From: Gemmatimonadota bacterium
GTDB lineage: Bacteria > Gemmatimonadota > Gemmatimonadetes > Gemmatimonadales > Gemmatimonadaceae
Assembly (NCBI GenBank): GCA_040389905.1
Contig: JAZJZK010000007.1
Location: forward strand, 351,492-415,491
Direction: 5' to 3'
DNA length: 64,000 nucleotides
The notes under the pieces were generated by a model. The model saw nothing but the letters and a program-made list of their open reading frames with translations. It was not told the DNA's origin and did not search any database. The translations under genes were made by a program, and so were the position numbers. Of the stretch, positions 4,160 through 62,512 are shown in pieces. Every line of letters begins with the position of its first letter. The stretch's first letter is position 1.

Positions 4160-4224
4160 CAGCCGTCAGGCTCTCTTGCTGTGTCCATTCCGAAACTGGC
4201 TGTGCTGACGCGCATCGCCATGCC

Positions 4225-4314
4225 TGTCATCCCGAGCGAAGTCGAGGGACCTGCACTTGCCGCGTATGTACGAGCTGCAGACCCCTCGACGCGCTTCGCT
4301 CGCACGGGGTGACA
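4225..4314. repeat. REP-like inverted doublet (TGTC-tagged family)
   Basis: TGTCATCCCGAGCGAAGTCGAGGGACCTGCAC ... TGCAGACCCCTCGACGCGCTTCGCTCGCACGGGGTGACA; related copies elsewhere in the window. Confidence 0.9.
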
Positions 4315-4387
4315 CGCCCGAAGTTGCGCGTTCTGGGCGGACACTGGCTTGCTCCCCCCCAGTGCCCCGAGTTAATTGCAGGTGGCC

Positions 4388-8557: not shown

Positions 8558-8671
8558 TGTCACCCCGAGCGAGCGATGCGAGTCGAGGGGTCGGCACCCT
8601 TGTCCTGAGCGCAGAGAAGGATCTGTACCTCGTGAACAAGTGCAGATCCCTCGACCTCGCTCGGGATGACA
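8558..8671. repeat. REP-like inverted doublet with a degenerate internal unit
   Basis: TGTCACCCCGAGCGAGCGATGCGAGTCGAGGGGTC ... TGCAGATCCCTCGACCTCGCTCGGGATGACA. Confidence 0.9.
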
Positions 8672-9203: not shown

Positions 9204-9298
9204 GGTGCAGGCCCTTCGCTCCGCTCAGGGCGACAAACGAGCGGAAATGTCGCCAACGGTGTCACCCCGAGCGAGCGACGCGAGTCGAGGGGTCTGCA
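9204..9298. repeat. Two REP-like units back to back
   Basis: GGTGCAGGCCCTTCGCTCCGCTCAGGGCGACAAACGAGCG then TGTCACCCCGAGCGAGCGACGCGAGTCGAGGGGTCTGCA. Confidence 0.9.
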
Positions 9299-11351: not shown

Positions 11352-11852
11352 ATGGCACAAACCGCATCATTCGACGTGACGACCGGCGTGGACCTCCAGG
11401 AAGTCGACAACGCCATCAACCAGGCCCAGAAAGAGGTCGTACAACGCTATGACTTCAAGGGTTCCAAGGCGACGATCGAGTTCAAGCGAGCGGAATCCCT
11501 CATTGCCCTCGTGGCCGACAGCGATTTTCAGATGACCGCGCTCTTCGACATCGTACAGACCAAACTGATCAAGCGCGGCGTTCCCGTGAAGAATCTCGAC
11601 ATCGGTGAATTGAAGCAAGCCGGAGGCGACACCGTTCGTCGTGACGTGAAACTCAAGATGGAGCTTGATCCGGAGACGGCGAAGAAGGTCGCGGCAGCAA
11701 TCAAGGAAGCGAAGCTGAAGAAGGTGCAGGCATCGATTCAGGGAGAGCAGGTTCGGGTGAGTGGCCCCTCTCGCGATGAATTGCAGGGGGCCATTGCGTT
11801 GCTCAAGAGCAAGGACTTCGGTGTGCAGCTGCAGTTCGGGAACTATCGGTAG
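11352..11852 (+). CDS. yajQ: YajQ-family nucleotide (c-di-GMP)-binding protein
   Basis: SFDV...QEVDNA...RYDFKG; KVQASIQGEQVRVSG; C-terminal QFGNYR. Confidence 0.95.
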   Translation: MAQTASFDVTTGVDLQEVDNAINQAQKEVVQRYDFKGSKATIEFKRAESLIALVADSDFQMTALFDIVQTKLIKRGVPVKNLDIGELKQAGGDTVRRDVKLKMELDPETAKKVAAAIKEAKLKKVQASIQGEQVRVSGPSRDELQGAIALLKSKDFGVQLQFGNYR

Positions 11853-11856
11853 CCGG

Positions 11857-13773
11857 ATGCCGAGGTCGCGCCTCCTTCGCTATGGCGCCGCCCTCGCGGC
11901 GTTGCTGGCCGGCAGTTCCTGCGGGGGAGATTCCGCGCCAAGTCAGGTAACGCCGCCCGCCTCCGTCGTCACAAGCATCGAGGTCACGCCATCGTTGCCA
12001 ACGCTCGAAATTGGCTCGACCATGACGATGTCGGCGACGGTTCGTGATCAGCGGGGGGCGGCCATGAGTCAACAGGTGCAGTGGACAAGCAGCAGTGAGA
12101 CGGTCGCGCAGATTGGTGCGTCGACAGGGCTCCTGACGCCGACCGGTCCAGGCACCACCACGATTTCAGCATCGGCCGGTGGCAAGCTGGGGACGACGAC
12201 GCTGACCGTCTTTCAGACGGTCGCGTCCCTGTTCATCGACAGTATTCCGCCGAAGCTCTATGTCGGTAAGACGGCGCAACTCGTGTTTCAGGTGCGCGAT
12301 GCGATTGGTGTGGCCGTCAACTTGAAGGCGGTCACATGGACGTCGAGCGCGCCGTCCGTCGCAACCATCTCGCCGTCGGGACTGCTCACGGGCGTCTCGC
12401 TCGGGACGACGCAGATTACCGGTGTCGTGGATGGAAAAACGGCATCGCGCTCGATTGTCGTCCAGCCGCTGCCGCAGGTGTTCGTTACGATGACCCCGGA
12501 GAATGCGTCGCTCGCGCGCGGTGCCGACTACGCGTTGACGCCCAGTGTCACGGATCTCGATGGAAAGCCGCTCGCCGGTCGCGTGGTCACCTACTCGACC
12601 TCCGATGCATCGATTGCGACGGTGACGGCCGCCGGCGTCGTGCATCCGATCGCCAACGGCGTCGCGACGATCACTGCGTTGGTCGACGGTCAGGACGCGA
12701 CGTCGCGCGTCACCGTGCTCGATCCGCGAACCGTGAGCGGCACGGTCTACACCGCCGATGGTGCGAGTCCCGCGAACGTGGCGTTTACCGCCCGCTTCGG
12801 CGGCGGCGTGTCGGTGCAGCGCTTCGTCGCACCGGTCAACGCGGCCACCGGTGCCTTCTCGCTCGTCATTCCATTTTTTGCGACGAACGCGCCCGTTATC
12901 GAGTACTTCGTCGATATCGCGTCGGGGACGTCCCGGCCGTATCACCCGTCCTACGTCAGGCTGTCCGGCGGGGCCGCGCCGGTGAACTCGCGCATTGTTC
13001 TCGTCCCCCACACGGTGGTGCCGGATTCTGGGACGTACGCCGGCAAGTCGTTCGCGGTTGACCTGAACGAAGCGTTCACGCCTGTGTGTCCGTATTCTCC
13101 AGTGGACGCAAACTGCCAGAGCTACTGGCCGAACTATTGGCTTTCAGGCGGAATCAAGAACTGGCCGGATGCGGCTCGCCCCATTCCATTGGCCATCGAT
13201 CGCACGCCAGGGCCCGCGACGGCCGCGGATTCCACGGCGATGTGGACGATCATTCGAATCATGGAAGCCGATCTCGGCAGGCAGCTGTTCAAACCTGTCA
13301 TCTTTTCCGGGTACACGACGCCTGGCTACACCAACGGTCAGGTACTCGTCTCGTTCGATGCCTCGTTGAGTGGCTTTGCGGGCTATACAAACTGGTTTTG
13401 GGACGCGAGTGCCTCCGTTGTGTATGCGCGCATCCGGCTCGCTGGTGCACAGTATTTCGCGCGCTCCGACATCGTGTCGCACGAGTTGACGCATGCGCTT
13501 GGGTTCAGCCACACCTGCCGGTGGACCACGATCATGGGCGGCTACTCGTGTACCCAGACGACGCGGCTGAGCCAGACGGACGTCGCGTACTACCACCTGG
13601 CGGAACTCGTGCGGCGGAAGTCCGCGGCGGTGTCGGCGACGTGGAGTGTGCAAGAGGGCCTCGACGGCGTGCGGGTGCTGGAACTGAAGCTCCCCGCACC
13701 CGATGCGGTGTCGGCAAACGTGTTTGCGCTGAAGTCCAGGATTGGACTTCCGGGCAGCGACGCGTCGCCGTAG
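11857..13773 (+). CDS. Lipoprotein with three bacterial Ig-like (Big_2-type) repeats and a C-terminal zinc metalloprotease-like domain
   Basis: Lipobox-like GSSCGG; three W/Y-[ST]-S-S..VA.....G..T repeats; HELTHALGFSH motif followed by IM (Met-turn-like). Confidence 0.8.
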   Translation: MPRSRLLRYGAALAALLAGSSCGGDSAPSQVTPPASVVTSIEVTPSLPTLEIGSTMTMSATVRDQRGAAMSQQVQWTSSSETVAQIGASTGLLTPTGPGTTTISASAGGKLGTTTLTVFQTVASLFIDSIPPKLYVGKTAQLVFQVRDAIGVAVNLKAVTWTSSAPSVATISPSGLLTGVSLGTTQITGVVDGKTASRSIVVQPLPQVFVTMTPENASLARGADYALTPSVTDLDGKPLAGRVVTYSTSDASIATVTAAGVVHPIANGVATITALVDGQDATSRVTVLDPRTVSGTVYTADGASPANVAFTARFGGGVSVQRFVAPVNAATGAFSLVIPFFATNAPVIEYFVDIASGTSRPYHPSYVRLSGGAAPVNSRIVLVPHTVVPDSGTYAGKSFAVDLNEAFTPVCPYSPVDANCQSYWPNYWLSGGIKNWPDAARPIPLAIDRTPGPATAADSTAMWTIIRIMEADLGRQLFKPVIFSGYTTPGYTNGQVLVSFDASLSGFAGYTNWFWDASASVVYARIRLAGAQYFARSDIVSHELTHALGFSHTCRWTTIMGGYSCTQTTRLSQTDVAYYHLAELVRRKSAAVSATWSVQEGLDGVRVLELKLPAPDAVSANVFALKSRIGLPGSDASP

Positions 13774-13775
13774 TT

Positions 13776-14242
13776 CCGCTCGTTCTGTCGCCCTGCGCCC
13801 TTCGTCGCTTGCGTTCCTCGAGGGCAGGCTTCGCGAAAGTGCCCGCACCATCTGGTCGTACGCAGTCCGCCCATTTCGCCAGGTCGGCGCGAGGTCATCC
13901 CACGCCGGGTTGTTCGCACTGATCAGCTCGATCTTTCGGCGCCGCGTCCATCCCTTGAGCTGCTTCTCTCGTGCGATCGCTGCACGTATATCGTGAGTCG
14001 TCTCGACGTGAACGAGCCTGGTAATGCTATGACGGGCAGTTGTCACGACTGTGCCCGACCGATGCTCGTCGAGGCGGAGGACGAGATTGCTCGTCACGCC
14101 GATGCACAGGGCACGAGATTGGCCCGCGAGTATGTGGACGTAGTAGGTTCGCATGGCCGAACATTGAGCGAGGCGGGCGCTGACCGCGGCGAAGAGCGGA
14201 GGTGCGGGCCCTTCACTTCGTTCAGGGCGACAAAACGAGCGG
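13776..14242. mobile_element. Candidate REP-bounded GIY-YIG element
   Basis: Left end CCGCTCGTTCTGTCGCCCTG...GCCCGCACC (13776-13849) is the inverse of right end GGTGCGGGC...CAGGGCGACAAAACGAGCGG (14201-14242); a GIY-YIG gene lies between. Confidence 0.6.
13879..14154 (-). pseudogene. Small GIY-YIG nuclease family gene, degenerate; no stop after the domain, ORF runs on to 13144
   Basis: YYVHIL...LCIGVTSNL..R..EH...AIAREKQLKGW.R.RKIELI...NPAW.DL; both signature Tyr appear substituted (H, C). Confidence 0.75.
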
Positions 14243-14307: not shown

Positions 14308-15690
14308 ATGAAACTCGGCTTCATCACCCTCGGGTGCGACAAGAACACCGTGGACAGCGAGCGCTATCTCGCACAACTCGCTGACCGCGGCGCCGAGTAC
14401 ACCGATGATCTCGCACAAGCCGAGGTGATCATCATCAACACGTGCGGCTTCATCGACGCCGCCAAGAAAGAATCTCTCGACGCCATCATTCAGGCGGGCG
14501 ACCTCAAGGAGTCCGGATCATGCCGCGCCGTCGTCGCCGTTGGATGCATGGTCCAGCGACACAAGGGCGAGCTCGAAGCGGCGCTCCCGGAAGTCGACCT
14601 GTTTCTCGGGTCGTCCGAAATGGACCAGCTCCTTCCGGAGCTCGAAGCGCGCGGCCTGATCGACGATGTCCCGGCCATTCATCCCGGCGTTCGGCTTTTT
14701 ACCGGCGACACGCCGCACATTCGCTACCTCAAGGTGAGCGAGGGATGTGACCACGGCTGCGCCTTCTGCGCGATTCCACTCATGCGGGGCAAGCACCGCT
14801 CCTTTGCGCTGGATGAAGTCGTCCGCGACGCCCAGCTCCTCGAAGCGCAGGGCGCGCGCGAGGTCAACCTCGTCGCGCAGGATCTGGCGCACTACGGCCG
14901 CGATCGGCGCGACGGGTTCACGCTGCCGGAGTTGCTCGAGGCGCTGGTTCGTGAGACGTCCATCCCGTGGCTTCGCATGCTGTACCTCTATTCGTCGGGG
15001 ATTACGCCCCGTCTCCTCGAGGTCATGAGTGCGGAACCGCGCATCCTGCCGTACCTCGATATGCCGATGCAGCATGCGTCCGATGCTGTACTCGCGAGAA
15101 TGCGCCGGCCGGAGCGCCAGCGCACCATCCGCGATCGGGTGCAAACCATCCGCGGTGTAGTGCCCGACATCGCGATCCGCACCACGTGCATCGTCGGCTT
15201 TCCCGGCGAGACGGACGAGGACTTCGCGCAGCTCATGGCCTTCCTCGAAGAGATCCAGTTCGAGCGAGTCGGTGCGTTTACGTACTCCCCGCAGGAGGGC
15301 ACGAAGGCCGCCGAGATGATCGATGACGTGCCGGAGTCCGTGAAGCGACAGCGGCTCGAGCGCCTCATGGAGCTGCAACGACAGGTAACGGCGGAGCGCT
15401 ACGAGCGCTTCATTGGGCGCACGGCACGCACGATGATCGACCGCATTGTGGACGGAGAAGCGCAGGGACGGACCGTGTGGCAGGCGGACGACGTCGACGG
15501 AATCGCCTACGTCCAGGGTGCCGAGGAGCTCCCGCCAGGTACGATTATCGACGCGGTCATCGAAGGGGTCGAGGACGATGTGGATTTCCGGGCGACGCTG
15601 CTTCGGGTGATCGACCTCCCGGGAGCGCCGCCGAAGCGCGCCCGGTCGCTGCCGGTAATGAGTACGTCGATTGGGAGCTTTGGCCGTTGA
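14308..15690 (+). CDS. rimO: Ribosomal protein S12 methylthiotransferase
   Basis: LGCDKNTVDSE, NTCGFI, radical SAM CDHGCAFC, IVGFPGET, C-terminal TRAM-like region. Confidence 0.95.
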   Translation: MKLGFITLGCDKNTVDSERYLAQLADRGAEYTDDLAQAEVIIINTCGFIDAAKKESLDAIIQAGDLKESGSCRAVVAVGCMVQRHKGELEAALPEVDLFLGSSEMDQLLPELEARGLIDDVPAIHPGVRLFTGDTPHIRYLKVSEGCDHGCAFCAIPLMRGKHRSFALDEVVRDAQLLEAQGAREVNLVAQDLAHYGRDRRDGFTLPELLEALVRETSIPWLRMLYLYSSGITPRLLEVMSAEPRILPYLDMPMQHASDAVLARMRRPERQRTIRDRVQTIRGVVPDIAIRTTCIVGFPGETDEDFAQLMAFLEEIQFERVGAFTYSPQEGTKAAEMIDDVPESVKRQRLERLMELQRQVTAERYERFIGRTARTMIDRIVDGEAQGRTVWQADDVDGIAYVQGAEELPPGTIIDAVIEGVEDDVDFRATLLRVIDLPGAPPKRARSLPVMSTSIGSFGR

Positions 15691-20658: not shown

Positions 20659-20744
20659 TGTCATCCCGAGCGAAGTCGCCGTCTGCACCTTCAGTCTGAG
20701 TCTTGGTGCGGGCCCTTCAACTCGCATGCTCGCTCGGGGTGACA
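20659..20744. repeat. Degenerate REP-like inverted doublet
   Basis: TGTCATCCCGAGCGAAGTCG ... GGTGCGGGCCCTTCAACTCGCATGCTCGCTCGGGGTGACA. Confidence 0.85.
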
Positions 20745-21266: not shown

Positions 21267-22999
21267 GATTCCTGGCGAGTCTCCATGCACGTCATCCCGA
21301 GCGAAGTCGAGGGATCTGCACGCGCAGCATGGGTTTGAGGTGCAGACCCCTCGACTCGCTTCGCTCCCTCGGGGTGACAATCCTGGCACTCATTGCCATA
21401 GCTATTCCGCGCGTCGCCGCAGCGCAGGAACTCCGCGGTACGATCATCGATAGCACGTCGCGCCGGCCGGTTGCGGGGGCCGTCGTCATGCTGATGGATT
21501 CTGTCCGGATGATGTTGGGGCGAGGACTCAGCGACGAGCGCGGAGAGTACAGGCTGCTTCTGACCGCAGCCGCGACGCGCATACGCATTGTCAGACTGGG
21601 TTTCCGCGCACGCGAAGTGTCGCTGCCCGCCGACCATGCCACTGGCGGCCGTGTGGACGTTGTCATGCTCGCCATTCCGGCGATGCTCGATCGCGTGGCG
21701 GTGATCGCGTCACCAAAGTGTGCGAAGCGAAGCGATGCAGAGGCGGCGCTCGCGCTCCTCGATCAGGCTCGATCCGGCCTGCTCGCAACCATCGTCGCGC
21801 GCGAGGCGAATCCCGGCACCTTCAAGATGCTCGCCTTCGGCCGCTCGATGGACGGATACAGCGACAGGATTCTGAAACAGGCCGTTCGCATCGATTCGAG
21901 TTCTGCGACGAAGTCGTTCTACGCGGTGCGGACCGGTGCCGATTTCGTACGGCTCGGCTTCGCGCGTGATAGCAATGGGGTTCGCAACTACCTGGGACCC
22001 GACGCCGAAACGCTGATCGACAACGATTTCGCGCTCGGCTACTGCTTTCGGGTGCACGATCCAGTGCGCGAACGGCCCCATCAGGTTGGGCTCACCTTTG
22101 GCGCGGCGGACCGCAAAAAGGGTCGCATCGACGTCGACGGCACGTTGTGGGTGGATACCGCAGCACGCGCGTTGCGCGACATCGAGTTTTCCTTCGTCGG
22201 AACCGAGCCTCTGCTTGGCGCACCCACGCCGGGCGGCCACATCTGGTTCCGCGAAATGCCAAGCGGTGTCGTGATCATCGACCGGTGGTTCTTTCGCTTG
22301 ATCGGCGCAGGAAGCGACACCAGCTACAGCCACCGTAGTGACCAGTCGATCCGCACCTGGTACTTCGCCCGCGACGCGGGGGGCGAAGTCGCGCGCGTCA
22401 TATGGCCCGACGGCCGCGCCTGGAAAGCATCGCTCGGCACGCTGGAACTACATCTCGTGGATCGGCTCGGCCGGCCGGCGCGGAACCAGATCATCAGGTT
22501 GCGTGACACGGACTACCTCGCGAGCCCCAACGCCCGTGGCGACCTGGAGATTCCGGATTTGCTGCCTGGTCCGTACGTCGTGCAGGCGATCGACGTCGAG
22601 AGTGGCGTCGCGCTCGATACCGACCTCTCCATCGTGGCCATCCGGGACAGCGTCGTGCGCACGGCGCTCGTGGCACCGGCGCCGGATGTCTTTCGGAAGA
22701 AGGCGTGCGAGCGAACCGCTCCGAACAGGTGGATTCCCGTGCTGGTCCTCATCGGTCAGAAGGCACCGGCGCCTGGCGTCGAGTGGGAAATCGGTACGCG
22801 ACTCGGCACGGAAGCGGAGGACGTCATCGCGAGCGGACATGCCGACGAGGAGGGCCGGTTTGGGTTTTGTAGTTCGTTGATGAAGGATCGGATCCTCGAC
22901 GTTCGTACGCGTCGAAATGAGGCGACGCGGCAGGACATCATCACGAGTCTCGTTGGCACGGTCAACGAGCTCAAGATCACGCTGCCGCCATCCCCATAG
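21263..22999 (+). CDS. Exported protein with carboxypeptidase-regulatory-like domains
   Basis: AQELRGTIIDS..RRPVAGAVV...SDERGEY...RLGF pattern; second such domain at PDLLPGPY; ATGA overlap with upstream gene. Confidence 0.75.
   Translation: MRFLASLHARHPERSRGICTRSMGLRCRPLDSLRSLGVTILALIAIAIPRVAAAQELRGTIIDSTSRRPVAGAVVMLMDSVRMMLGRGLSDERGEYRLLLTAAATRIRIVRLGFRAREVSLPADHATGGRVDVVMLAIPAMLDRVAVIASPKCAKRSDAEAALALLDQARSGLLATIVAREANPGTFKMLAFGRSMDGYSDRILKQAVRIDSSSATKSFYAVRTGADFVRLGFARDSNGVRNYLGPDAETLIDNDFALGYCFRVHDPVRERPHQVGLTFGAADRKKGRIDVDGTLWVDTAARALRDIEFSFVGTEPLLGAPTPGGHIWFREMPSGVVIIDRWFFRLIGAGSDTSYSHRSDQSIRTWYFARDAGGEVARVIWPDGRAWKASLGTLELHLVDRLGRPARNQIIRLRDTDYLASPNARGDLEIPDLLPGPYVVQAIDVESGVALDTDLSIVAIRDSVVRTALVAPAPDVFRKKACERTAPNRWIPVLVLIGQKAPAPGVEWEIGTRLGTEAEDVIASGHADEEGRFGFCSSLMKDRILDVRTRRNEATRQDIITSLVGTVNELKITLPPSP
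21290..21379. repeat. REP-like inverted doublet, 90 nt, in frame inside the CDS 5' end
   Basis: CGTCATCCCGAGCGAAGTCGAGGGATCTGCAC ... GTGCAGACCCCTCGACTCGCTTCGCTCCCTCGGGGTGACA. Confidence 0.92.
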
Positions 23000-23005
23000 C
23001 CACTG

Positions 23006-23044
23006 TTCGTTTTGTCGCCCTGAGCGCAGCGAAGGGCCCGCACC
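23006..23044 (+). repeat. Single REP-like unit
   Basis: TTCGTTTTGTCGCCCTGAGCGCAGCGAAGGGCCCGCACC; inverse of the 14201-14242 unit. Confidence 0.9.
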
Positions 23045-29646: not shown

Positions 29647-29868
29647 CAGCAACAAACATACGTACGAGGTACCCGGAACCGTGTACCCGGACTGGCATCG
29701 AACCCAAGAGGAGCCATCGACACTTCGTATGGCATCGAGGCTACGCCAAACGCCGTCCGCAGTTGCGAACGGCGTTATTCGTGAGGACACTTTCTGATGG
29801 CTCTTCTTGGCCGGTATGCCAGTCAACGTACCCGGTTCGGAGTACCTCGTACGTCAGTTGTTGCTGTT
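29645..29868. repeat. MITE-like long inverted repeat, copy 1 (GTAC heptad family)
   Basis: AACAGCAACA..ACGTACGAGGTAC...GACTGGCAT..CCAAGAGGAGCCATC is mirrored by GATGGCTCTTCTTGG..ATGCCAGTC...GTACCTCGTACGT..TGTTGCTGTT. Confidence 0.85.
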
Positions 29869-34514: not shown

Positions 34515-34835
34515 GGGGCGCGGGCTCAGGCCCGGGCCAACCGCCGGCTTGGGCGCGGGCTTGGGCCAGGGCTGGGGCCGGGGCTTGCCTGCAGGCGCGG
34601 GCTCGAGCCCGGGGCGGAGCTTGGGCGCCGCCCGCTGACAGCTGAAGTCTGAGCCCCCGCCCTCAGCCAGTAGTCAGCCCACGGCCGCAAGCCCCTGCCC
34701 GAGCCCGGGCCTGCAGGCAAGCCCAAGCGCGAGCCGTAGCCCCAGCCCGCGGCCGAGCCCACGGTTGGCCTCGGGCTCGAGCCCGCTCCCCCATGCCTAG
34801 TTACCAGCCGGCCTCATGCCCGAGCCCGGGCCCGC
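34515..34835. repeat. Inverted array of degenerate hexamers (GGGCTN)n ... (NAGCCC)n
   Basis: GGGCTTGGGCGCGGGCTTGGGCC...GGGCTTGCCTGCAGGC mirrored by GCCTGCAGGCAAGCCCAAGC...GAGCCC. Confidence 0.75.
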
Positions 34836-36252: not shown

Positions 36253-37282
36253 GGCGGCGAAGAGCGGGAAGGTGCAGGCCCTTCGCTTCGCTCAGGGCGA
36301 CAAAACGAGCGGAACGGCGGAAGAGCAGGTGCAGACCCCTCGACTCGCTGCGCTCGCTCGGGGTGTCATTGGCAGCGCTGTCACCCCGAGCGCAGTCGAG
36401 GGGTCTGCACCTCACGCACCTCACGCACGTGAACGCGAAGCCATCACCGTCGGCGCGCTGGTGACGCGCTTGGCGCAAATCATCGGGTCGACGGAACAGG
36501 CGCGCGACCTCCTCAGCCTCTTGCACAGCCAGCCGCGCCACTGGATCACGCTCTCGCGCGAGAGCGTTCTCTCCGAAAAGGACGTGGCCTCCGCGCTGAA
36601 TGCCGCCGAGCGACTCGCCGCAGGCGCACCAATCCAGTACGCTGCCGGTCGTGCTGCGTTTCGTCACCTGGTGCTGGCAGTCGACGAACGCGTGCTCATC
36701 CCGCGGCCCGAAACGGAACTGCTCGTTGACCTCGTGCTCGACGCAGTCCGCGACCGACCGGGGGGAATTGCCGTTGATGTCGGCACGGGGTCCGGCGCCA
36801 TCGCCGTGGCGCTTGCCACCGAAGGCAGATTCGAGCGCGTGATTGGCACCGACATTTCTCGCGATGCGCTCGCCGTCGCACGCACAAACGTGTTCCAGGG
36901 CGCGGGCGCGAACGTCGCCCCGGTTGAGCTGCGACACGGCGCTTTGCTCGAACCGGTACTCGAGCGTGGACTCAGCGCGATCGTGTCGAACCCACCTTAC
37001 ATTTCCCATGCGGAAGCGGGGGGGTTGCCCTCCTCCGTGCGCGACTGGGAGCCAGCCGTCGCACTCTTTTCCGAGGACAACGGGCTGGCGACGACTTTGC
37101 AATTGGTTCGTGCCGCGGCCGTCGCGCTGGCACCGAACGGCGTGCTCGCGCTGGAAGGTGACATGCGTCGAATGACGGCCGTCGCGGACGCCGCAGCGTC
37201 CAGTGGCTTTGCCGATGTCCGTGTACTGAAGGATCTCACAGGCCGCGATCGCTTCGTGGTCGCCAGACGACGGGAGGAGTAG
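36245..37282 (+). CDS. prmC: Release factor glutamine methyltransferase with repeat-derived N-terminal extension
   Basis: VLIPRPETE, DVGTGSG, NPPY, DLTGRDR; follows prfA. Confidence 0.93.
   Translation: MTRAAKSGKVQALRFAQGDKTSGTAEEQVQTPRLAALARGVIGSAVTPSAVEGSAPHAPHAREREAITVGALVTRLAQIIGSTEQARDLLSLLHSQPRHWITLSRESVLSEKDVASALNAAERLAAGAPIQYAAGRAAFRHLVLAVDERVLIPRPETELLVDLVLDAVRDRPGGIAVDVGTGSGAIAVALATEGRFERVIGTDISRDALAVARTNVFQGAGANVAPVELRHGALLEPVLERGLSAIVSNPPYISHAEAGGLPSSVRDWEPAVALFSEDNGLATTLQLVRAAAVALAPNGVLALEGDMRRMTAVADAAASSGFADVRVLKDLTGRDRFVVARRREE
36271..36410. repeat. Three REP-like units within the prmC 5' region
   Basis: GGTGCAGGCCCTTCGCTTCGCTCAGGGCGACA; GTGCAGACCCCTCGACTCGCTGCGCTCGCTCGGGGTGTCA; TGTCACCCCGAGCGCAGTCGAGGGGTCTGCAC. 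Confidence 0.92.
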
Positions 37283-51725: not shown

Positions 51726-51992
51726 AACAAACTTACGTACTCGGTACTCAGTACAACCACCAACGTACGAGGTACCCGGAACTGGGTACCCTGACTGGCA
51801 TCCAACCCAAGAGGAGCCATCGATCCAGGAGTCGCGGATAAGTGCACCTTCAAACGCAAAACGCGGTGAAGCGAAGCGACACCCGGCTTTCGATGGCTCT
51901 TCTTGGCCTCAATGCAAGTCCGCGTACGTGGTACAGGGTACGTCGTACGTCAGTCCCGCGGTCTGGGCTTCGTACGTGGTACCCCGTACGTC
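51726..51992. repeat. MITE-like long inverted repeat, copy 2 (GTAC heptad family)
   Basis: ACGTACGAGGTACCCGGAAC..GTACCC.GACTGGCATC.AACCCAAGAGGAGCCATCGA nearly identical to the sequence from 29660; right arm GATGGCTCTTCTTGGCC. Confidence 0.85.
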
Positions 51993-62344: not shown

Positions 62345-62350
62345 TGCGCC

Positions 62351-62500
62351 GTAATCAGATGAGACAGGTGCTCAGTAGCCAACCGCAGCTAACAGAGCGA
62401 CAGGGGGTGTGGCGCTCCAGTGCATCGCACCGTGATCGCCACACCCCCTGTTGCTCTGTCGGCTGCGGCTGATCACTGAGCACCTGTCACATCTGATTAC
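62351..62500. repeat. 150-nt near-perfect hairpin
   Basis: GTAATCAGATGAGACAGGTGCTCAGT...ACAGGGGGTGTGGCG pairs with CGCCACACCCCCTGT...ACTGAGCACCTGTCACATCTGATTAC. Confidence 0.92.
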
Positions 62501-62512
62501 CGCGCACAAAAC

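What the first reader, a model, noticed from the sequence alone, without database searches (positions are those of the whole stretch)
13776..14242. GIY-YIG nuclease gene boxed by inverted copies of the dispersed REP family: candidate non-RAYT REP-mobilising system
Seen: a 467-bp unit whose ends are inverted copies of the palindromic repeat found at eight other loci here, enclosing only a ~92-codon GIY-YIG gene. The left copy carries a nested extra hairpin. Known: classical REPs are mobilised by HUH tyrosine transposases (RAYT/TnpA-REP) whose genes are flanked by REPs in a similar way. Inference: a minimal GIY-YIG nuclease may be the cognate enzyme, with the empty doublets (4225, 8558, 21290) as non-autonomous derivatives. 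I cannot tell from this window whether the association has been characterised.
Basis: partly seen in the sequence, partly recalled or inferred. Interest (0 to 1): 0.85.

Follow-up and report, generated by a model that had tools for sequence, protein, structure and literature searches.

The report
Decayed Ssn nuclease between its hairpins
A tiny DNA-cutting gene, likely dead, sits between two mirror-image copies of a hairpin repeat found hundreds of times in this genome; the layout and protein match the Ssn nuclease system published in 2025, with a hairpin version that the published search pattern misses, and working copies of the enzyme likely help these repeats spread.

Summary
The 467-bp unit is real. 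A 93-codon GIY-YIG gene lies between two inverted TGTC-tagged repeats, a family with about 480 copies in this genome. The association is already described: the protein meets the Ssn homolog criterion of Chenal et al. 2025 (46% identical to gonococcal SsnA, E 9e-15). That paper showed ssDNA cutting beside the hairpin and already drew the RAYT/REP analogy. This copy is decayed: both essential tyrosines are replaced and the stop codon is gone. A paralog on C13 is intact and also boxed. The hairpin is a variant outside the published SRM pattern: a 5-bp covarying stem, two GA steps and usually a GNA mini-hairpin. It flanks homologs in many phyla. Within the genus, repeats track Ssn presence (21/21) but not HUH transposases, and 27 Ssn loci occupy 24 neighbourhoods. 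Mobilisation remains inferred. The scan found this system before in many other genomes.

The parts
13776..13849 (+). Left (gene-downstream) repeat, subtype C with 10-nt leader (13776-13785), TGTC tag (13786-13789) and nested insert; decayed relative to its family
13797..13825 (-).
   Evidence: 20 long blastn hits; 18 regex matches
13876..14154 (-). Ssn-type GIY-YIG gene, 93 codons; H7 and C17 at the positions of SsnA Y6 and Y17, E63 (SsnA E64) kept; no stop until 13144
14201..14242 (-). Right (gene-upstream) repeat, subtype C with leader (14242-14233) and TGTC tag (14232-14229)
11761..13773 (+). Left neighbour: Ig-like (Big_2) domain protein; its stop codon ends 2 nt before the unit
14308..15690 (+). 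Right neighbour: rimO; upstream DNA similar to a relative begins at about 14248, just outside the unit
4225..4314 (.). Tags-out A+B doublet of the same repeat family; this intergenic gap is about 190 nt here and 32-62 nt without such a doublet in four relatives
8558..8671 (.). Tags-out B+A doublet with a weak partial copy inside
9204..9298 (.). C copy (-) next to B copy (+), tags facing
20659..20744 (.). Degenerate tags-out doublet
21290..21379 (.). Tags-out A+B doublet
23003..23043 (+). Single subtype C copy with leader
36271..36410 (.). Cluster of three copies: C (-), B (-), short B-like (+)

Best explanation
This is a likely inactive Ssn-type GIY-YIG nuclease gene boxed by two inverted copies of a TGTC-tagged hairpin repeat that intact enzymes of this branch are predicted to bind and cut on single-stranded DNA, and such cutting likely helps spread both the gene and the repeats. 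Shown here: the layout, the homology to SsnA, the lost tyrosines and stop codon, the covarying 5-bp stem, the gene-repeat association across phyla and within the genus, and the scattered positions of the gene. Taken from Chenal et al.: SsnA binds its hairpin only as ssDNA and cuts a few bases 5' of the tag; Y6A and Y17A abolish cutting but not binding. Inferred: with both tags pointing outwards, each strand would be nicked at its own 5' end of the unit, and host repair or recombination through shared repeat ends would copy the unit or a bare repeat to new sites. The cassette likely arrived with subtype C in this lineage, lodged between a stop codon and the rimO upstream region, and has since decayed, while the intact C13 paralog goes with subtype B and its A partners.
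For: tblastn of the gonococcal SsnA ORF (L159; Y6, Y17, E64 in place, NTS on both sides) hits this gene at 46% over 85 of 94 aa, E 8.6e-15, and the paralog at E 1.5e-19. Tyrosines are present in 102/104 and 100/104 homologs but read CAC and TGC here; the possible source run shows no other letters there. The GA-type hairpin lies within 300 nt of 58/71 cross-phylum homologs (both sides 36/71) and 16/22 genus homologs (both sides 14/22), against 14 copies in 239 kb of farther flank. Genus, 53 genomes: 21/21 with Ssn have the repeat against 16/32 without (Fisher p 4e-5; medians 43 and 0.5); Y1_Tnp shows no link (p 0.74). 27 genus Ssn loci fall into 24 neighbourhood groups; 29 rimO loci fall into 1. 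0/28 relatives carry the gene or hairpin at rimO. Leader-bearing subtype C: 65 matches here, at most 4 in any of 54 others.
Against: No activity was measured. The published SRM pattern does not match these repeats (0 in the window; 30 in the genome against 41-52 in 5 shuffles). Single copies do not fold better than shuffles in ViennaRNA (z 0.93, 0.74, 0.01, 0.93, -0.27). 4 of 32 genomes without a detected Ssn still have 20-300 matches, and 6 of 21 with Ssn have fewer than 20. The genomes are incomplete and related, so the p-values overstate. No target duplication or base-exact empty site was found; relatives are at most 85% identical in rimO. Subtype C is more diverged than A (p 9e-8) but not than B (p 0.23), so the 'dead enzyme, older repeats' test is inconclusive. 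C copies have a conserved 10-nt leader where SsnA cuts in variable flank.
Confidence: 0.65

Rival explanations
1. Domesticated ssDNA restriction only: Ssn cuts incoming or exposed ssDNA at the hairpins to tune recombination, as shown in Neisseria. The repeats spread by another route and the gene merely sits among them.
For: The only in vivo role shown for SsnA is lowering integration of NTS-bearing transforming DNA (PMC11893778). GIY-YIG enzymes are hydrolases with no known strand-transfer step (own knowledge). Repeat-rich genomes without a detected Ssn exist: G075 300, G077 99, G071 57 matches.
Against: A housekeeping gene should keep its neighbourhood; these occupy 24 groups among 27 loci (rimO control 1 of 29) and are patchy (21 of 53). 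Each protein branch travels with its own hairpin type. This copy has decayed.
Confidence: 0.25
2. A RAYT or other HUH transposase spreads the repeats, and the GIY-YIG gene is a passenger captured between two copies.
For: Tags-out heterodimers with 16-19-nt spacers look like REPINs (most of 85 such pairs). Y1_Tnp genes occur in 12 of 53 genus genomes. This genome is only 84.6% complete.
Against: No Y1_Tnp here; 0/16 Y1_Tnp loci carry the hairpin and their presence does not track repeat number. Di Nocera et al. found no transposase flanked by CGTC repeats.
Confidence: 0.05
3. The repeats are RNA elements (terminators or mRNA stabilisers) and the flanking of this gene is incidental.
For: Copies lie between genes, the left copy 2 nt after a stop codon; a doublet folds strongly (z -5.46).
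Against: Two of two Ssn genes are boxed at a background of 0.04%, and the pairing recurs in many phyla. 133 of 212 perfect-stem copies hold a GNA triloop motif; GCGNAGC mini-hairpins are very stable as DNA, and the one RNA version compared in the passages read was much less so (PMC13037366). An RNA side role is not excluded.
Confidence: 0.05

Closest known systems
Ssn nucleases (SsnA, CDD cd10448 GIY-YIG_unchar_3) with NTS/SRM hairpins; Chenal et al. 2025, PMC11893778
   Same: Single-domain GIY-YIG of about 94 aa, 46% identical to gonococcal SsnA; gene flanked on both sides by an HGTC-tagged oriented hairpin with hundreds of genomic copies; the IS/RAYT analogy is already in their discussion.
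   Different: The hairpin has a 5-bp stem, GA/GA steps and a variable inner hairpin and is missed by the SRM pattern; the protein lies on another side of an SH-aLRT 99 branch from the 8 SRM-flanked rows; this copy lacks Y6, Y17 and its stop; two enzyme-repeat pairs share one genome.
CGTC-tagged REP families 1-4; Di Nocera et al. 2013, PMC3733652
   Same: CGTC/TGTC unpaired tag, short tail, frequent heterodimers, intergenic, no associated tyrosine transposase.
   Different: Their stems are 8-9 bp with 4-5-nt loops; this one is an interrupted stem with an expandable core. I could not see their Figure 2 consensus sequences.
RAYT/TnpA-REP with GTAG REPs and REPINs
   Same: Small gene flanked by its own palindromic repeats; dispersed inverted doublets with a fixed spacer.
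   Different: No HUH motif or Y1 domain; tag is TGTC; RAYTs are typically single-copy (PMC5581495, start of abstract only), whereas these genes occupy many unrelated sites and 2 copies occur here.

Membership tests
Ssn nucleases (Chenal 2025) | SsnA homolog by tblastn, E < 1e-10 over > 75% of SsnA | tested here: met
   E 8.6e-15, 85/94 aa, using the N. gonorrhoeae ORF in L159 in place of the paper's N. meningitidis query; 87 of 88 GA-flanked rows also pass by blastp
Ssn nucleases (Chenal 2025) | Top CDD hit cd10448 | not testable with these tools
   CDD not available; Pfam gives PF01541 only, NCBIfam nothing
Ssn nucleases (Chenal 2025) | Small single-domain protein (under 150 aa) | tested here: inconclusive
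   Domain is 93 aa and 104 of 106 rows stop within 142 codons, but this frame runs 336 codons for lack of a stop
Ssn nucleases (Chenal 2025) | Catalytic Y6, Y17, E64 | tested here: not met
   Window copy H7, C17, E63; C13 paralog keeps Y7, Y17, E63
Ssn nucleases (Chenal 2025) | Flanked by an HGTC-tagged hairpin repeat on both sides | tested here: met
   Both genomic copies boxed, tags out
Ssn nucleases (Chenal 2025) | Flanking repeat matches the published degenerate SRM pattern | tested here: not met
   0 hits in window, below shuffles in genome, 0 of 71 homolog loci on both sides; the same regex finds NTS around L159
Ssn nucleases (Chenal 2025) | Site-specific cleavage of ssDNA only, 5' of the tag | not testable with these tools
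   Needs an in vitro assay
CGTC REPs (Di Nocera 2013) | Unpaired CGTC/TGTC tag at one end | tested here: met
   TGTC in 382, CGTC in 8 of 398 full copies
CGTC REPs (Di Nocera 2013) | 8-9-bp stem with 4-5-nt loop | tested here: not met
   5-bp outer stem, GA steps, inner part 5-30 nt
RAYT/REP-REPIN | HUH Y1 transposase (PF01797) flanked by the repeats | tested here: not met
   None in G000; 0/16 genus Y1_Tnp loci with the hairpin
RAYT/REP-REPIN | GTAG tag | tested here: not met
   Tag is TGTC
Insertion sequence / MITE | Transposase gene, target duplication, several near-identical full copies | tested here: not met
   Inner 350 nt unique in the genome; no duplication seen at the ends; no transposase domain

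The most novel reading that the evidence does not exclude
Ssn nucleases are the missing mobilisers of CGTC/TGTC REPs. The roughly 450-bp repeat-gene-repeat unit is a minimal autonomous element that moves by ssDNA nicking plus host repair, without any transposase, and each enzyme branch spreads its own hairpin. A large GA-hairpin branch across many phyla was missed by the published pattern, and this genome holds two orthogonal pairs (C13 with subtypes B and A; this unit with subtype C and gene-less derivatives on C53 and C5), which makes the idea directly testable.
Probability: 0.4. Interest if true: 0.65.

Novelty: new variant of a known kind. Interest (0 to 1): 0.3.

Why it matters
The system is known, so the locus itself is modest: a broken copy. 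What adds value is (1) a hairpin class outside the published SRM pattern that flanks SsnA homologs in many phyla, including lineages the paper's table scores as having an Ssn but no SRM enrichment (for example Reyranella soli and R. massiliensis); this widens the pool of enzyme-site pairs for ssDNA tools; and (2) comparative evidence (scattered gene positions, repeat load tracking the gene, no RAYT link) on the open question from Di Nocera 2013 of what spreads CGTC REPs.

Tried and rejected
Published SRM pattern: no match. PDB search: only weak UPF0213 hits, E 0.04-0.08; no Ssn structure found. NCBIfam: no family. Base-exact empty allele at rimO: not obtainable, relatives too distant and upstream genes vary; the 21290 site did not align in five relatives. 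Thermodynamic folding of single copies: no support. Divergence test of subtype C against A and B: mixed. Sequencing runs: no RNA holder listed. A contig joint 'skipping' 13829-14202 is not an excision product: its between-letters match the separate C53 locus seen. The downstream repeat supplies the stop codon in only 20 of 103 homologs, so this is not a general rule. RAYT passenger and RNA-element readings were considered and scored low. No structure prediction was run.

Full report
Observation. The window is G000:C7:351492-415491 of a 5.08-Mb, 84.6%-complete genome; several of the closest named homologs of the gene are Gemmatimonadota, so the host is likely of that phylum. The unit 13776-14242 has inverted ends, 19 of the outer 20 nt matching. 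It starts 2 nt after the stop of an Ig-like (Big_2) gene and ends about 6 nt before DNA shared with a relative upstream of rimO. Inside, a GIY-YIG domain (PF01541, E 4.5e-8) begins at ATG 14154 on the minus strand. No stop follows; the frame runs 336 codons.

The repeat. A profile built from 11 window copies finds 477 hits at E<=0.1 in the genome and 0 in the reversed genome; they form 341 loci. The tag is TGTC in 382 of 398 full copies. Of 118 two-copy loci, 85 are tags-out pairs, most with 16-19-nt spacers. Three main subtypes occur: A (119), B (145) and C (128). A and B pair as heterodimers (53 loci); C is mostly single (87 loci) and has a conserved 10-nt leader. The window holds seven other loci, not eight. 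This unit is bounded by C; the doublets at 4225, 8558 and 21290 are A/B. The left copy is a recurring nested form of C (20 long blastn hits, itself included) and has decayed. Gene-less pairs with the same two ends, nested left plus plain right, lie at C53:33265 and, read by eye, at C5:277636.

Second copy and enrichment. The genome has four PF01541 matches. Two are long UvrC-type genes (named from their length and sequence, my reading) more than 4.8 kb from any repeat. The other is a paralog at C13:67640, 57% identical, boxed by clean inverted B copies. Of five tags-out boxes enclosing 150-700 nt, two are these genes; random 280-nt intervals are flanked on both sides in 83 of 200,000 draws. 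No Y1_Tnp gene was found.

Identity. Chenal et al. 2025 (PMC11893778; I read main-text parts 1-6 of 11, supplementary file 12 whole, file 6 part 1 of 2, and searched rows of file 11; files 13-14 were not searched and figures are not visible) describe Ssn nucleases (cd10448). 71% of homologs have an SRM nearby and 42% on both sides; SsnA binds and cuts only ssDNA, a few bases 5' of the hairpin; Y6A, Y17A and E64A abolish cutting but allow binding; the discussion compares NTS-ssnA-NTS with IS200/IS605 and REP systems. The ssnA-like ORF of a N. gonorrhoeae record (L159) has Y6, Y17, E64 and NTS copies on both sides. It hits the window gene at 46% over 85 of 94 aa (E 8.6e-15) and the paralog at E 1.5e-19, inside the paper's homolog criterion. 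The window copy has His and Cys where 102 and 100 of 104 homologs have Tyr, each one base from TAC; the paralog keeps both. Contigs of the possible source run show the same letters at even depth (not independent). His and Cys substitutions were not tested in the paper, so 'dead' is an inference, backed by the lost stop and decayed left repeat.

A hairpin outside the published pattern. The SRM pattern finds 0 sites in the window, 30 in the genome (41-52 in five shuffles) and flanks both sides of 0 of 71 homolog loci; 9 of 80 loci were set aside for short flanks. Instead the flanks hold tag + 5-bp stem + GA + inner part + GA + stem. This form lies within 300 nt of 58 of 71 cross-phylum loci (both sides 36, nearest pair tags-out 23) and 16 of 22 genus loci (both sides 14). 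Searching without demanding pairing, 66% of 154 locus-stem pairs are fully complementary against 14% with shuffled partners (highest 23% in 1000), with alternative pairs at four of five positions; relatedness inflates this. 133 of 212 perfect-stem copies contain a GNA triloop closed by two pairs. GCGNAGC mini-hairpins are unusually stable as DNA and not explained by standard models (PMC13037366, passages only), which may explain why ViennaRNA gave single copies no advantage over shuffles. That the GA steps form sheared pairs is my inference from recalled DNA structure work. In a 116-row, 92-column tree the 8 SRM-flanked rows and 2 unlabelled rows lie across an SH-aLRT 99 branch from all 86 GA-flanked rows (two duplicates and two truncated loci left out; GA rows were chosen by similarity to the query, so clustering is partly built in). 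The paper's table lists Reyranella soli, R. massiliensis and Planktothrix paucivesiculata as cd10448-positive with SRM enrichment below 1; other Reyranella and Planktothrix loci fetched here carry GA hairpins. The paper's de novo logo (Fig. 3e) may include this form; I could not see it.

Does the gene travel with the repeats? Y1_Tnp (12 genomes) shows no link and 0 of its 16 loci carry the hairpin. The Ssn query was shifted 13 codons upstream, the pattern was tuned to this genome, the genomes are incomplete and related, and three Ssn-negative genomes have 57-300 matches. The 27 genus Ssn loci with usable flank form 24 neighbourhood groups, whereas 29 rimO loci form one. None of 28 relatives has the gene or hairpin in the 0.3-1.6 kb held upstream of rimO. 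The gap holding the 4225 doublet is 32-62 nt in four relatives against about 190 here. Leader-bearing C has 65 matches here and at most 4 elsewhere. C is more diverged than A but not than B.

Mechanism. Most likely an intact enzyme binds the folded hairpin on exposed ssDNA and nicks 5' of the tag. Tags-out geometry would put one nick at each end of the unit, on opposite strands, and host recombination or repair through shared repeat ends would move the unit or bare repeats. The first step is by homology to SsnA; the rest is inferred. The main rival is ssDNA restriction without a role in spread.

Literature searches. 'GIY-YIG' with 'repetitive extragenic palindromic' gave 0 papers; 'SsnA' with 'GIY-YIG' gave 2, one relevant; Ssn and cd10448 terms from 2023 on gave the paper and three others that hold the phrase once or twice (listing only); two searches gave REP/RAYT papers and the Ssn paper. 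I found no paper in this library on the GA-type hairpin or on Ssn-driven mobility; subscription journals are not covered. Di Nocera 2013 (PMC3733652; abstract, passages, sections 6 and 16 read) states that CGTC REPs lack a dedicated transposase. This scan has 62 earlier notes matching my word search, of which 8 were shown, and 6 more by sequence; two of the latter already say the published pattern misses their repeat.

Verdict. Real, explained by a known system, a broken copy with a repeat variant: new variant of a known kind, interest 0.3.

Noticed in passing
window 29655-29863 and 51754-51954: A second, unrelated family of long inverted doublets (arms about 65 nt, variable spacer); about 44 loci in the genome by blastn. 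No partner gene sought.
   Followed up: partly
window 62345-62506: A third family: 73-nt inverted arms with a short spacer, about 35 loci in the genome.
   Followed up: partly
window 34528-34796: GC-rich imperfect inverted repeat built of short tandem units.
   Followed up: no
L129, L131-L134 (genus Ssn loci): These Ssn genes carry another hairpin variant, with the same tag but a different inner part, and group together in the tree with two rows lacking a detected hairpin.
   Followed up: no
L160:589-882 (Azospirillum lipoferum 4B): An SRM-flanked Ssn gene sits between sufB and sufC, which looks like an insertion into an operon.
   Followed up: no
L172 (G015), site orthologous to window 4160-4350: A canonical NTS-like palindrome occupies the same intergenic site where this genome has a GA-type doublet: two repeat types at one site.
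   Followed up: no
L162 (Planktothrix agardhii plasmid): A GA-hairpin-flanked Ssn gene lies between a type IIL restriction enzyme gene and DISARM drmA.
   Followed up: no
window 11761-13773: Ig-like repeat protein whose C-terminal part has an HELTH motif suggestive of a zinc metalloprotease (motif recalled, not tested); upstream of rimO in only 2 of 28 relatives.
   Followed up: no
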